Shown here piece after piece: positions 31,301-40,300 of a DNA stretch of 64,000 nt. The stretch lies in NCBI RefSeq assembly GCF_054482595.1, contig NZ_CM137008.1, one strand, 5' to 3'. The position numbers were made by a program. How positions within the stretch are numbered: the first letter of the stretch is position 1; the number at the start of each line of letters is the position of its first letter.

Positions 31301-34300
31301 ACAGTTGCTGATGCTGACAGATAAGCAAATCGCCGATTTCCAGAAACATTATCAGACTGAAGCGGAGCGTTTTCATATTCTGCCACCGGGGATTTATCCT
31401 GATCGTAAATATAGCCAGCAGCCAGCCAATAGCCGTGAAATCTTCCGTAAGAAGAATGGAATAACCGAACAACAATATTTATTGTTGCAGGTCGGTTCAG
31501 ACTTCACGCGTAAAGGTGTCGATCGTTCCATTGAAGCACTTGCTTCGTTACCGGATTCGCTGCGCCACAACACATTGCTATATGTTGTTGGGCAGGATAA
31601 ACCGCGAAAATTTGAGGCGCTGGCAGAAAAACGCGGCGTGCGCAGTAATGTTCACTTTTTCTCGGGGCGCAATGATGTCTCGGAATTAATGGCGGCGGCG
31701 GATTTATTACTGCATCCTGCCTACCAGGAAGCGGCGGGAATTGTGCTGCTGGAAGCGATTACTGCAGGATTACCGGTACTAACAACAGCCGTTTGTGGCT
31801 ATGCGCATTATATTGTCGACGCCAATTGCGGCGAGGCTATTGCTGAGCCATTCCGCCAGGAAACATTGAATGAGATTTTACGCAAAGCGTTAACGCAATC
31901 TTCATTGCGCCAGGCCTGGGCGGAAAATGCGCGACATTATGCTGATACACAAGATTTATACAGTCTGCCAGAGAAAGCGGCGGATATCATAACGGGTGGT
32001 CTGGATGGTTGAACTTAAAGAGCCGTTTGCCACGTTATGGCGCGGTAAAGATCCTTTTGAGGAAGTTAAAACCTTGCAGGGTGAGGTATTTCGTGAACTG
32101 GAAACTCGCCGTACTCTGCGCTTTGAAATGGCGGGCAAAAGCTATTTTCTCAAATGGCATCGCGGCACGACCCTGAAAGAGATAATCAAAAATTTACTCT
32201 CATTGCGGATGCCAGTATTAGGCGCAGACCGCGAATGGAATGCGATTCATCGACTGCGGGATGTCGGCGTTGATACTATGTATGGGGTGGCATTCGGCGA
32301 AAAAGGCATGAATCCGCTGACCAGAACCTCGTTTATTATTACCGAAGATCTGACACCAACCATCAGTCTGGAAGATTACTGTGCTGACTGGGCGACCAAC
32401 CCACCAGATGTTCGCGTAAAGCGTATGCTTATTAAGCGTGTCGCGACGATGGTGCGCGATATGCATGCTGCGGGCATTAACCATCGTGACTGTTATATCT
32501 GTCATTTCCTGCTGCACTTGCCTTTTTCCGGTAAGGAAGAGGAGTTAAAAATTTCGGTAATTGACCTACACCGGGCGCAGCTTCGCACGCGCGTTCCACG
32601 TCGTTGGCGCGATAAAGATCTTATAGGGCTTTATTTTTCTTCAATGAATATCGGCCTGACTCAGCGGGATATCTGGCGGTTTATGAAAGTGTATTTTGCC
32701 GCCCCGCTTAAAGACATTCTCAAGCAGGAACAAGGACTGCTGTCGCAAGCAGAAGCAAAAGCCACAAAAATCAGGGAAAGAACGATTCGAAAATCGTTGT
32801 AATTTCCGGAGAGAAATATGAGTGCCCACTATTTTAATCCACAAGAGATGATCAATAAGACAATCATCTTCGATGAAAGGCCAGCGGCGTCAGTGGCATC
32901 ATCATTCCATGTTGCTTATGGCATTGATAAAAACTTTCTTTTTGGTTGTGGTGTTTCAATCACGTCAGTTTTGTTACATAACAACGACGTGAGTTTTGTT
33001 TTCCACGTTTTTATTGATGATATCCCTGAAGCCGATATCCAGCGTTTAGCCCAATTGGCGAAAAGCTATCGTACCTGTATCCAGATCCATCTAGTAAATT
33101 GTGAACGGCTTAAGGCATTACCGACGACCAAAAATTGGTCTATTGCCATGTATTTCCGTTTTGTAATTGCAGATTACTTTATTGATCAACAAGATAAGAT
33201 CCTTTACCTGGATGCTGATATCGCCTGTCAGGGAAACTTAAAGCCGCTGATAACAATGGATCTTGCCAATAACGTTGCTGCTGTTGTTACTGAACGCGAT
33301 GCTAACTGGTGGTCGTTACGGGGTCAAAGTCTGCAGTGTAATGAACTTGAAAAGGGTTACTTTAATTCAGGTGTCCTGTTAATTAATACACTAGCGTGGG
33401 CGCAGGAGTCCGTTTCTGCTAAAGCGATGTCGATGCTTGCTGATAAAGCCATCGTTTCCCGTTTAACCTATATGGATCAAGATATCCTTAATCTTATCCT
33501 GTTAGGGAAAGTTAAATTCATTGATGCTAAATACAATACGCAATTTAGTTTAAATTATGAATTAAAAAAATCATTTGTTTGTCCAATTAATGATGAAACC
33601 GTATTAATTCATTATGTCGGCCCGACAAAACCCTGGCATTACTGGGCCGGTTATCCAAGTGCGCAACCTTTTATCAAAGCCAAAGAAGCATCGCCCTGGA
33701 AAAATGAACCGTTAATGCGGCCAGTTAACTCAAACTATGCTCGTTATTGCGCCAAGCATAATTTTAAACAAAACAAACCAATTAACGGGATAATGAATTA
33801 TATTTATTATTTTTATTTAAAGATAATAAAATGAAATTGAGGAAAGTTAAATGAATGAATTTATAAAAGAACGGTTTTCGTATTTAGCAGATAATAAAAA
33901 AGAAAACGCCCCAGAGCTAAATGTTTCCTACGGTATCGATAAGAATTTTTTGTATGGTGCTGGCGTTTCAATTTCTTCCGTTTTGATTAATAATTCAGAT
34001 ATTAATTTTGTCTTTCATGTTTTCACTGATTATGTGGATGATGATTATTTAAAGTCATTTAATGAAACAGCAAAACAATTTAATACCTCAATTATTGTAT
34101 ATTTAATTGACCCCAAATACTTTGCTGATCTGCCGACGTCACAGTTTTGGTCGTACGCGACATACTTCAGGGTATTGTCTTTTGAATATCTGAGTGAAAG
34201 TATTTCCACACTGCTGTATCTGGATGCCGATGTTGTTTGTAAAGGAAGCCTGAAACCTCTCACAGAAATTATATTTAAAGATGAGTTTGCTGCGGTCATT

Positions 34301-37300: not shown

Positions 37301-40300
37301 AAAGACTATTAACATCGGAAAAAAAACAACCTAGAACAAGGCTTCAGAAAAGAATGAAGTTTATACGCTCCTGGATAAAGGTGGCTTTTTTTTCTCTTTT
37401 GAAATGAGATTGTTAATTTCAATTTGTTGTGAGATATTAACGTGGAAGTAAAAATTGAGCAATTTCGAAATAATAGCTGTAATTTTATTTTTTTATTGTA
37501 TTTAATCGGTTTGTTGTTTGTGCCAATTGATCTTAATATCACCACTAAAATAATTAATGCGACAGGTGCATTTTCTCTTTTCTTATTAATTGTAAATAAA
37601 AAGCATAATTATAATAAAAATGTCATTATATTAATTCTTGGTTTACTTCTTTTGGGTGCAATGAACCTGATATGGTATGAATTTTATAAAACAGAAGATG
37701 TAGTATATAGAAATGCTTATCGAGGCTACCTTGAGTCTGGAAAACTATTAGTATTTAGCTCGTTGACATTTTTATTACTAAGTAAAAATAAATTCAGGCA
37801 AAATGAAAAACTACATTTTATTTCAGCTATCTTAGTTCAAATAATCATGCTATGTAGAGCATATTATCAAGGGATATATTTGCATGCAGACCGCATTCCC
37901 CTCTCCGCAATGAATGGGAATATTGGTCAGATGGGGGCAGCGACTATTGCGGCTTATGTGATTACATTCACTACTTTATATTCTTCAATTGTATTCATCA
38001 AAATGCAATCGAAATATAAATGGTTTCTATTTTATGCCAACTTTGCTTTAAGCTTTGCAGCAGTGATGATGACAGGAACGCGTGCGGCAATTTTTACATT
38101 CCCACTTATGATTATGGTCATATTATTTCTTCAGCATCGTGATCAAAAAGTGTTTTTATTTAAAGGATTGAGTGGTGTTTTTATATTGCTACTTGCTTGT
38201 GGTTTGATATTTAATAAGGAAATTGAGAGGCGAATTAATTCATTAAAAGCTGATGTTATTTCATATGCTACAAAAAATAACAGTCAATCCTCGGTCGGAG
38301 CACGTTTTGCAATGGTTAACGCAGGAATTAAAGGAAGTCCTGATGGTTTTAATTGGCAATCTCTTGAGCAGCGTGCTGAAAAGATAAAAGCATTAAGTGC
38401 AGACAATAATATTTATAGTGGAGCTTTATTATTCCTTGATGTACATATGCATAATGAAATTGTTGAAGCTCTTTCCACGAAAGGGAAAATTGGTCTTCTT
38501 GTTCTTATTATGTTCTATGTTGCAATTATCTACTACTGTATCCGGGAGAAAAAATATATACTTTTGGTTTTCCCTGCTTCTATTATGTTATTTGGCATTA
38601 GTGATGTCATTACGCATGCTAAACCAATACCGGCATCATGGATTGTGTGCCTCTTCCTGTCTATATCGTTTTTGAGTAAAAAAGAACCGCAATAATAAAA
38701 ACGTTGATTAAGTAAGTGGGTATAATGCCCACTTACTATTTATTAAATCAATGTAATTTCTTTATAAACAGCCGCTGCTTCTAAATTATTTAAACTCTTT
38801 AGCGGAGCCCTGCAAACCATCTGATTCTTCCCATATCCGCCAATTAATCCCGGATCGGTTGGTCCATAAACCGTGATATTGGGTCTATCCAGTGCCGCCG
38901 TTAAATGGCTTAACCCCGTATCCACCGACACTACAAATTTAGCCCCGGCCAGCACGCGGGCAACGCCTTCCAGACTCATCTTCGGCAATACTTCAACATA
39001 AGCAAATCCTTCCGCCAGTCGTTTCGCCCGTTCTTCCTCATGCGGCGCGCCCCACGGAAGTTTAATCCGTATTCCTGAATCAGCCAGTAAACCAATCAAT
39101 TCTCGCCAGTGTTCTTCCGGCCAGTGTTTATCATCACGGGTCGTCGCATGAAGAAATACGGCATATTCGCCAGCATCTGTAGGCAGGTTCGTCAGAAAAT
39201 GCTGTGCGATAGCATAATCGCCCTGGGTTTGCGGTTTGCTATAGCCCAAACTTTTGGCAAATAGTTCGCGGGTGCGTTCTACGGCGTGCTGCTGTTTTGC
39301 AATATGATGCTTACGATTGTAAAACAGGCTGGCTAAAGGTTCGCGAGCGGTTTGCCAGTCCATGCCATGCTTTACGCCATGCGCCAGACGCGTCACCAGC
39401 GCCGCGCTTTTTACCAGCCCCTGAGCGTCGATAACTGCGTCATAGTTCTCTGCTTGTAGCGCTTCACGAAACGCTTTGCGTTCCGCTTTTATGGGGGCCG
39501 AGAACCAGGCTTTACGCCAGCGACGTATTGCCACAGGAATAACTCGCTCAACGGCAGCGTGCCAGGAAGGAATCTGTGCGAACCCTTCTTCCACCACCCA
39601 GTCAAACTTAATCCCTGGGATTGCCTGCTGGGCATCAGTGAGTGCGGGCAACGTATGGAGAACATCGCCCATCGACGATGTTTTAACGATCAAAACCCGC
39701 ATCCGTCAGGCTTCCTCTTGTAACAATAGCGCGTTGAGTTCTTCCAGTACGCGCTGGGGAGTAATGTCGATTAAGCTCTGGTGATAACCCTCCGCAGCGT
39801 CACCTTTACGCACTTTGTGATAGCCGGTAATCAAACGGATCACGCGCGCTTTATGGGATAGCGGCGGTGTGAAGTCCGGGCTACTCGGACCATACAGGGC
39901 AACCAGCGGACGATTGAGCGCCGCCGCAACATGCATCAGGCCAGAATCGTTAGTGACAATGGCTTTACAGGCTGCAATCAGGATAACCGCTTGATCAAGC
40001 TGTGTTTCCCCCGCCAGGTTCCGACACCATGCCTGCTGCTCGGTATTCAAAGCGGCAAGAATCTCATTGCCCGCTTCATGATCTTTCGCCGAGCCAAACA
40101 GAACCACCTGATAACCTTCATCAATCAGCTGCTTTGCCAGCTCCGCATAGTGGTAGTGTGGCCAGCGTTTTGCCGGACCAAACTCCGCACCCGGGCAAAA
40201 ACCAATCATCGGACGTTCTGATGAAAGCGAAAATTGATTACAGGTATATGATTTTTCACCTTCGCTCACCTGCAATTGCGGCCATAACAACGGTTTTGGT

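What the first reader, a model, noticed from the sequence alone, without database searches (positions are those of the whole stretch)
32818..38695. Outer-core waa cassette is R1/R4-type, not K-12-type, and is low in GC
After waaQGP the cluster encodes GT8, GT8, WaaY-like kinase, GT8, a GT25 transferase and an O-antigen ligase, all on the waaQ strand and convergent with waaC-waaF-hldD. That order corresponds to waaO-T-Y-W-V(or X)-L of R1/R4 core types rather than K-12 waaSBOJYZK with waaL in the opposite operon. The segment is visibly AT-rich compared with the flanking inner-core genes, consistent with horizontal exchange of outer-core modules. R1 core is common in extraintestinal pathogenic E. 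coli. The R1 versus R4 decision rests on one gene (36634..37407) and I cannot resolve it by eye.
Basis: partly seen in the sequence, partly recalled or inferred. Interest (0 to 1): 0.35.

Follow-up and report, generated by a model that had tools for sequence, protein, structure and literature searches.

The report
E. coli R4-type LPS outer-core genes

Summary
Six intact, co-directional ORFs lie at exactly the stated coordinates: GT8, GT8, WaaY kinase, GT8, GT25 and an O-antigen ligase. They follow waaQ-G-P and face waaC-waaF-hldD. The segment is 34.7% GC against 49.8% for the window, and it is the lowest-GC 5.9-kb stretch in the window.

The open question resolves to R4:
- Published typing primers give the R4 amplicon (36443..36822, exactly 380 bp). 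There are no R1, R2, R3 or K-12 primer sites. A UTI89 control gives the 842-bp R1 product.
- At this position UTI89 (typed R1 here) carries a GT2 gene (waaV) with no detectable homology to this GT25 gene, so the GT25 call alone already implied waaX.
- Sources name the exact protein "beta-1,4-galactosyltransferase".

One refinement: R1 and R4 differ by a 2.3-kb module, not by one gene. It runs from about 36505 to 38802 and covers the 3' end of waaW, waaX, a ligase only 36% identical to the R1 ligase, and the 3' end of waaC.

Among 5,426 complete E. coli genomes the R4 module is in 690 (12.7%) and the R1 module in 1,835 (33.8%). These figures match a published survey (12.3% and 35.4%).

This is already known biology and of low interest.

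The parts
29725..29798 (+). JUMPStart-type leader of the waaQ operon, homologous to the K-12 rirA sRNA region. It holds the ops element GGCGGTAG at 29772..29779, which ends 53 bases upstream of the waaQ start.
   Evidence: Exact ops match. Fuzzy match to K-12 rirA with 8 edits. Sequence read directly.
29833..30891 (+). waaQ (heptosyltransferase III)
   Evidence: NCBIfam RfaQ equivalog, 714 bits against a cut-off of 467. RefSeq annotation in XH990.
30888..32012 (+). waaG (GT4 enzyme; adds the first outer-core glucose)
   Evidence: Annotated waaG in XH990. 100% identical to UTI89 WaaG.
32005..32802 (+). waaP (heptose I kinase). The mechanical ORF starts at GTG 31996; RefSeq starts it at 32005.
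   Evidence: NCBIfam RfaP, 482 bits against a cut-off of 170. Annotation.
32818..33834 (+). waaO (GT8, alpha-1,3-glucosyltransferase)
   Evidence: Pfam GT8 plus GT8C. NCBIfam PRK15171, 612 bits against a cut-off of 461. 98.5% identical to UTI89 WaaO and 51% to K-12 WaaO.
33851..34846 (+). waaT (GT8, alpha-1,2-galactosyltransferase)
   Evidence: Pfam GT8 plus GT8C. 99.1% identical to the UTI89 protein.
34856..35548 (+). waaY (heptose II kinase)
   Evidence: Pfam WaaY, 429 bits. NCBIfam RfaY, 400 bits against a cut-off of 248. 99.1% identical to UTI89 and 52% to K-12.
35574..36602 (+). waaW (GT8, alpha-1,2-galactosyltransferase). Its last ~100 nt, from about 36505, are R4-specific.
   Evidence: Pfam GT8 plus GT8C. 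93.3% identical to UTI89 WaaW, with the differences concentrated at the 3' end. Some RefSeq records name this gene 'UDP-galactose--(galactosyl) LPS alpha1,2-galactosyltransferase'.
36634..37407 (+). waaX (GT25, beta-galactosyltransferase). This is the R4-defining gene.
   Evidence: Pfam Glyco_transf_25, 176 bits. R4-F primer site at 36804..36822. Sources name the exact sequence 'Beta-1,4-galactosyltransferase'. No homology to UTI89 WaaV. Present in 690 of 5,426 genomes.
37442..38695 (+). waaL, the R4-type O-antigen ligase
   Evidence: Pfam Wzy_C. PDB match 7tpg, a polysaccharide polymerase/ligase, E = 2.6e-8. 36% identical to the R1 ligase and 31% to the K-12 ligase. 63% identical to the C. 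amalonaticus ligase in the same position.
36505..38802 (.). The R4-specific module as a whole: the stretch with no DNA homology to the R1 locus.
   Evidence: blastn against UTI89 aligns 26818..36531 and 38803..42000 only; the fine alignment loses identity from about 36505. About 1,840 genomes match the cassette only up to query position 3687-3714.
38711..38737 (.). A 12-bp-stem hairpin in the 47-bp gap between the convergent waaL and waaC genes; a likely bidirectional terminator.
   Evidence: Terminator-like scan. Sequence read directly.
38743..41694 (-). The convergent hldD-waaF-waaC operon: waaC 38743..39702, waaF 39706..40752, hldD 40762..41694. It does not contain waaL.
   Evidence: NCBIfam RfaC, 631 bits. 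Annotation. 96.5-100% identical to UTI89.

Best explanation
The segment is the outer-core part of a standard E. coli R4-type waa locus: waaO-waaT-waaY-waaW-waaX-waaL, the distal two thirds of the waaQ operon.

Inferred mechanism, from established knowledge of the waa system:
- Transcription starts upstream of waaQ. It passes a JUMPStart leader carrying an ops element, which recruits RfaH so that RNA polymerase can read through the long AT-rich operon.
- On the cytoplasmic face of the inner membrane, WaaG adds glucose I to the heptose region.
- WaaO adds glucose II, WaaT adds galactose I, and WaaW adds galactose II.
- The GT25 enzyme WaaX adds the beta-linked galactose side branch that distinguishes R4 from R1.
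- WaaP and WaaY phosphorylate heptoses I and II, and WaaQ adds heptose III.
- After the lipid A-core is flipped to the periplasmic face, the R4-type WaaL ligates undecaprenyl-diphosphate-linked O antigen to the completed core.

Shown here: gene content, order, intactness, family membership, R4 genotype, the ops motif, low GC, and the population distribution.

Inferred: every enzymatic step and linkage, the dependence on RfaH, and that the strain really displays an R4 core.
For: Genotype and gene content:
- In silico PCR with the published primers gives the R4 product, 36443..36822 = 380 bp, exactly as published. No R1, R2, R3 or K-12 sites exist. The UTI89 control gives 842 bp, which is R1 (primers from PMC13293308).
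- All six Pfam families are as expected, as are the NCBIfam equivalogs for WaaO, RfaY, RfaQ, RfaP and RfaC.
- WaaO, WaaT, WaaY and WaaW are 93-99% identical to the UTI89 proteins. The GT25 protein has no homology to UTI89's GT2 WaaV. WaaL is 36% identical.
- Sources name the exact GT25 sequence 'Beta-1,4-galactosyltransferase'.
- All ORFs are full length and match the RefSeq CDSs.

Population distribution:
- The GT25 gene is in 690 of 5,426 genomes (12.7%) and the R1 module in 1,835 (33.8%). Together these account for 2,525 of the 2,528 genomes that carry the shared waaOTYW part.
- The published survey gives R4 12.3% and R1 35.4%.
- ST648 genomes carry the cassette, and the survey links ST648 with R4.

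Other:
- The ops element lies at 29772..29779, in a homologue of the rirA/JUMPStart region.
- Recalled Amor 2000 primers place R4K14 at 36450 and an R4C4-like site at 37130..37149, giving 700 bp where about 699 is expected. This is weak evidence because the primers come from memory.
Against: - There is no chemical or serological evidence for the core structure of this strain.
- The enzyme activities are transferred by homology and by names given in databases.
- The literature I could read disagrees on the WaaX linkage: beta-1,4 in PMC13293308 and beta-1,3 in PMC3526765.
- The reference R4 sequence from the type strain (F2513) was not available to compare. The two founding papers could not be read.
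- The Wzy_C score of the ligase is only just above Pfam's cut-off (32.6 against 31.7).
- Only 64 kb of the genome is visible, so a second core module elsewhere cannot be formally excluded. ECOR46 is reported to have one.
Confidence: 0.96

Rival explanations
1. The locus is R1-type.
For: waaO, waaT, waaY and most of waaW are 93-99% identical to the R1-type strain UTI89. R1 is three times more frequent than R4.
Against: There is no R1-F primer site and no GT2 gene. The gene at the waaV position is GT25 and has no homology to UTI89 WaaV. The ligase is only 36% identical. Megablast homology to the R1 locus stops at 36531 and resumes at 38803.
Confidence: 0.01
2. The strain is an R1/R4 hybrid like ECOR46, with a second waaV-waaL(R1) copy outside the 64-kb window.
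For: Such a configuration has been reported once (PMC13293308). Only 64 kb of the genome can be seen.
Against: The R1-module genomes (1,835) and R4-module genomes (690) sum to 2,525 of the 2,528 genomes with the shared part, so double carriers are at most a handful. No IS element or duplication is present in the locus. The near-identical genome XH990 has the cassette in a single place.
Confidence: 0.02
3. The low GC marks a recent horizontal acquisition of the whole outer-core cassette by this lineage from a low-GC donor.
For: GC is 34.7% against 49.8% for the window, with sharp edges at about 32800 and 38800. Third-position GC is 24-37%. The nearest non-E. coli relatives of WaaX are only about 71% identical.
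Against: The same low GC is seen in the R1 locus of UTI89 (32-38%) and in the syntenic R4-like locus of Citrobacter amalonaticus (30-35%). Low GC is therefore an old, shared property of enterobacterial outer-core genes, not a mark of recent arrival. No mobility genes, tRNA or direct repeats flank the segment. The 'plasmid' hits are a 4.9-Mb record and 3-10-kb fragments. Exchange between core types by homologous recombination in the conserved flanks remains likely, but that is the textbook view.
Confidence: 0.1
4. The genes are intact, but the strain is phenotypically rough or makes a modified core, through regulation or mutations elsewhere.
For: Nothing in the window bears on expression. Phenotype cannot be read from these 64 kb.
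Against: All nine waaQ-operon ORFs are full length. The ops leader is present. Identical sequence is found in many clinical and animal isolates.
Confidence: 0.05

Closest known systems
E. coli R4 core-type waa locus (waaQGPOTYWXL facing hldD-waaF-waaC)
   Same: Gene content, order, orientation, the diagnostic waaX gene, the 380-bp R4 amplicon and the population frequency. The cassette is 97.7-100% identical to that of the 690 full-length R4-module genomes, judged from the rows listed.
   Different: No difference was detected. The type-strain reference sequence itself could not be compared.
E. coli R1 core-type waa locus (for example UTI89, Nissle 1917, DSM 30083)
   Same: waaQ, G, P, O, T, Y and W are shared at 93-100% protein identity, and the overall architecture is the same, with the ligase in the waaQ operon.
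   Different: A 2.3-kb module differs. R1 has GT2 waaV (327 aa) where this locus has GT25 waaX (257 aa). The ligases are 36% identical. The 3' ends of waaW and waaC differ.
E. coli K-12 core-type waa locus (MG1655)
   Same: The inner-core genes waaQ, G, P, C, F, hldD and waaA, the JUMPStart/ops leader, and distant homologues of WaaO and WaaY at 51-52%.
   Different: K-12 has waaS, B, J, Z and U, has no GT25 gene, and places waaL in the hldD-waaF-waaC operon.
R4-like waa locus of Citrobacter amalonaticus (GCA_002918935.1)
   Same: Identical gene order from waaQ to hldD, including GT25 and the ligase, with the same low GC.
   Different: Outer-core proteins are only 63-87% identical, and WaaX 67%. 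An htrL gene follows hldD there but not here.

Membership tests
E. coli R4 core type | Gene order waaQ-G-P-O-T-Y-W-X-L on one strand, convergent with hldD-waaF-waaC | tested here: met
E. coli R4 core type | Presence of waaX, a GT25 beta-galactosyltransferase gene, between waaW and waaL | tested here: met
   Pfam PF01755, 176 bits. Source name 'Beta-1,4-galactosyltransferase' for the exact sequence.
E. coli R4 core type | R4-specific PCR amplicon (R4-F with R1R4-R, 380 bp) | tested here: met
   Sites at 36443..36462 (+) and 36804..36822 (-), 0 mismatches, 380 bp. Primers from PMC13293308.
E. coli R4 core type | Near identity to the waaX and waaL sequences of the R4 type strain F2513 | not testable with these tools
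   The reference record is not in the collections, and the founding papers are not held.
E. coli R4 core type | Core oligosaccharide carries a beta-galactose side branch (chemical or serological definition) | not testable with these tools
   Needs LPS chemistry or R4-specific antibody.
E. coli R1 core type | Presence of waaV (GT2 beta-glucosyltransferase) and the 842-bp R1 amplicon | tested here: not met
   No R1-F site. No GT2 gene, and no homology to UTI89 WaaV.
E. coli K-12 core type | waaS, waaB, waaJ, waaZ and waaU present, with waaL in the hldD operon | tested here: not met
   No K-12 primer sites. The best K-12 identities are 31-52% and none is a best hit. waaL is on the waaQ strand.
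E. coli R2 and R3 core types | R2 (waaK/waaZ) or R3 (waaD/waaJ) diagnostic primer sites | tested here: not met
   No sites within 3 mismatches. An O157:H7 genome matches only the first 50 bases of the cassette; O157:H7 strains are mostly R3 in the survey.
RfaH-dependent operons (JUMPStart/ops) | ops element GGCGGTAG in the transcribed leader upstream of the first gene | tested here: met
   29772..29779 (+), ending 53 bases upstream of waaQ, in a homologue of the K-12 rirA region. Dependence on RfaH itself was not tested.

The most novel reading that the evidence does not exclude
The most novel reading the evidence allows concerns how R1 and R4 relate. They may be two alleles of a discrete 2.3-kb waaX/V-waaL module, with junctions inside the 3' ends of waaW (about 36505) and waaC (about 38802). 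Homologous recombination would swap this module as a unit across E. coli phylogroups, and the polymorphism would be older than the species, because Citrobacter amalonaticus carries a syntenic R4-like version (ligase 63% identical to R4 and 33% to R1). This strain's 100%-identical subgroup might then be a recent recombinant in a lineage where R4 is uncommon. This would be a modest refinement of known biology, not a new system.
Probability: 0.3. Interest if true: 0.15.

Novelty: already known. Interest (0 to 1): 0.07.

Why it matters
Core type affects which phages can adsorb to a strain, which anti-core antibodies or vaccines recognise it, and which residue the O antigen is attached to. Knowing that this genome is R4 rather than R1 is therefore a useful annotation, but it is routine typing of a system described since 1998 and surveyed across thousands of genomes in 2025. 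A practical lesson for annotators: a GT25 gene between waaW and waaL means R4, and a GT2 gene means R1. RefSeq's generic product names hide this.

Tried and rejected
- NCBIfam has no model that names the GT25 protein or the ligase (0 families each), so it could not settle R1 versus R4.
- RefSeq product names are generic: 'glycosyltransferase family 25 protein'.
- Two literature queries failed on the three-character minimum for search terms.
- Amor et al. 2000 (PMC97256) and Heinrichs et al. 1998 (J Biol Chem 273:29497) are not held. The original primers and the type-strain description could therefore not be quoted.
- I tried the Amor primers from memory. The R1 pair gives 552 bp in UTI89 with one mismatch each, and nothing in the window. 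R4K14 lies in the shared part of waaW in both sequences. My recalled R4C4 was not found within 2 mismatches. At the expected distance the window has the same sequence with one extra base (37130..37149), so my recall was probably one base short. I treat this as weak corroboration only.
- UniRef representatives Q9ZIS1, Q9ZIS5 and Q9ZIS6 are identical to the window's WaaW, WaaO and WaaT. They look like 1998-era deposits, but I could not verify which strain they come from, so I did not use them as evidence.
- Plasmid carriage of the module was considered and rejected. The four 'plasmid' hits are a 4.9-Mb record and non-mobilizable 3-10-kb fragments.
- A Pasteurellaceae or Neisseria donor for the GT25 gene was considered because of its 29.8% GC.
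- Promoter-like sites are no more frequent than in shuffled sequence (28 found against 31.6 expected), so no promoter is claimed.

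
Full report
**1. The observation**

The mechanical ORF list shows six co-directional + strand ORFs at exactly the coordinates given: 32818..33834, 33851..34846, 34856..35548, 35574..36602, 36634..37407 and 37442..38695. They are preceded by three + strand ORFs (29833..32802) and followed by three convergent - strand ORFs (38743..41694).

The window corresponds to positions 64001-128000 of the chromosome of E. 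coli XH990 (NZ_CP019359.1), a human urine isolate. The first 49 kb differ at only 2 bases. RefSeq calls the same CDSs there: rfaQ, waaG, rfaP, waaO, GT8, rfaY, GT8, GT25 and O-antigen ligase, then rfaC, rfaF and rfaD on the other strand.

The GC drop is real:
- cassette 34.7%, against 47.5% for waaQGP, 51.8% for waaC-waaF-hldD and 49.8% for the window
- the cassette is the lowest-GC 5.9-kb stretch of the 64 kb (minimum 34.5% at 32901, median 51.6%)
- third-codon-position GC falls to 24% in the GT25 gene and 27% in the ligase

**2. R1 or R4**

Four lines of evidence agree on R4.

(a) In silico PCR. A 2025 paper gives nine primers that type 99% of 4,549 complete genomes (PMC13293308). In the window, R1R4-R matches at 36443..36462 and R4-F at 36804..36822 on the opposite strand, both without mismatch. 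The product is 380 bp, exactly the published R4 size. None of the R1, R2, R3 or K-12 primers has a site within 3 mismatches. As a control, the UTI89 locus gives the 842-bp R1 product.

(b) Gene family. At this position UTI89, which types as R1 in the control, has a 327-aa GT2 protein. It shows no significant similarity to the window's 257-aa GT25 protein. WaaV and WaaX are therefore not variants of one gene, and a GT25 call already means waaX.

(c) Names. A UniRef cluster and an IMG entry name the exact protein 'Beta-1,4-galactosyltransferase' and 'GR25 family glycosyltransferase involved in LPS biosynthesis'. The typing paper describes waaX as the beta-1,4-galactosyltransferase.

(d) Frequencies. 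The GT25 gene is present in 690 of 5,426 complete genomes (12.7%), and the R1-specific module of UTI89 in 1,835 (33.8%). The published shares are R4 12.3% and R1 35.4%. The two sets sum to 2,525 of the 2,528 genomes that share the waaOTYW part, so the modules behave as mutually exclusive alleles. ST648 genomes carry the cassette, and the survey links ST648 with R4.

**3. What differs between R1 and R4**

blastn of the window against the UTI89 locus aligns 26818..36531 at 98.4% and 38803..42000 at 97.1%, with nothing in between. The fine alignment shows identity collapsing from about 36505, roughly 100 nt before the waaW stop codon.

On the right side, homology resumes 60 nt inside the 3' end of waaC, whose product is 319 aa here and 326 aa in UTI89.

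The type-specific module is therefore about 2.3 kb. It contains the WaaW C-terminus, waaX, the ligase, the intergenic hairpin and the WaaC C-terminus. The ligases are only 36% identical.

**4. Not K-12, R2 or R3**

MG1655 has waaQGPSBOJYZU, with waaL downstream of waaC. Against a database of K-12 and UTI89 waa proteins, each window protein that has any hit is closest to the UTI89 protein:
- WaaO 98.5%, WaaT 99.1%, WaaY 99.1%, WaaW 93.3%
- the corresponding K-12 proteins reach only 31-52%
- the GT25 protein hits none of the 12 K-12 waa proteins compared

An O157:H7 genome matches only the first 50 bases of the cassette; O157:H7 strains are mostly R3 in the survey.

**5. How it works (inferred)**

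The waaQ leader contains GGCGGTAG at 29772..29779, ending 53 bases before the start codon, inside a homologue of the K-12 rirA/JUMPStart region. From established knowledge of waa operons, this ops element recruits RfaH for read-through of the long operon.

By homology, the enzymes extend the core in this order: WaaG, WaaO, WaaT, WaaW. WaaX adds the beta-galactose branch. WaaP and WaaY phosphorylate the heptoses and WaaQ adds heptose III. WaaL then ligates O antigen in the periplasm.

The ligase has a detectable relative with a solved structure (7tpg, E = 2.6e-8). A 12-bp-stem hairpin at 38711..38737 sits in the 47-bp gap between the convergent waaL and waaC and is a plausible bidirectional terminator.

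None of these steps is demonstrated here. The papers I could read disagree on whether the WaaX linkage is beta-1,4 or beta-1,3.

**6. Horizontal exchange**

The low GC is shared by the R1 locus (32-38%) and by a fully syntenic R4-like locus in Citrobacter amalonaticus (30-35%). It is therefore an old property of outer-core genes, not a mark of recent arrival.

Outside E. coli, the nearest WaaX relatives are 71% identical or less, in Cedecea, Pluralibacter, Buttiauxella, Citrobacter and Leclercia.

The Citrobacter ligase is 63% identical to this one and 33% identical to the R1 ligase. The R1/R4 split of the ligase therefore predates E. coli.

There are no mobility genes in or next to the segment, the only tRNA gene in the window is selC at 1636..1730, and there is no real plasmid carriage. 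Sharp junctions in conserved flanking genes, together with the spread of R4 over several phylogroups, fit exchange by homologous recombination, which is the textbook view.

**7. Verdict**

The open point resolves to R4. The locus is a typical, intact member of a well-described type, so it is already known and of low interest.

Noticed in passing
window 1429..1730: tRNA-Sec (selC) lies at 1636..1730 (-). A 129-bp RhuM-family pseudogene fragment lies beside it at 1429..1557, and local GC is 41.5%. This looks like the scar of an island at the selC integration hotspot.
   Followed up: no
window 57445..62000: A degraded YadA-family trimeric autotransporter adhesin lies between lldP and yibL. It is split into ORF fragments at 57445..59151, 59148..59810, 59957..60661 (ESPR signal peptide) and 60705..61061. 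The near-identical XH990 record annotates it as frameshifted and with an internal stop. A 36%-GC stretch lies upstream at 61001..62000.
   Followed up: no
window 29725..29798: The waaQ leader is homologous to the K-12 small RNA gene rirA (8 edits over 73 nt) and contains the ops element.
   Followed up: partly
window 10502, 18872, 22430, 24698, 55484: GGCGGTAG occurs six times in the window against 1.06 expected; none of 100 shuffles reached six. Only the copy at 29772 is in a known ops context. The other five were not examined.
   Followed up: no
window 41694..41908: kbl follows hldD directly, as in UTI89. K-12 and C. amalonaticus have an htrL gene next to hldD.
   Followed up: no
database protein P0117 (not in the window): A 297-aa protein combines IS transposase domains (rve, HTH_21) with a GT25 fragment 88% identical to WaaX. 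This suggests an IS-disrupted waaX in some other isolate.
   Followed up: no
window 36505..36602 and 38743..38802: The R1/R4 junctions lie inside coding sequence, so the C-termini of WaaW (about 32 aa) and WaaC (about 20 aa; 319 against 326 aa) are core-type specific. Whether this has any functional meaning is unknown.
   Followed up: partly
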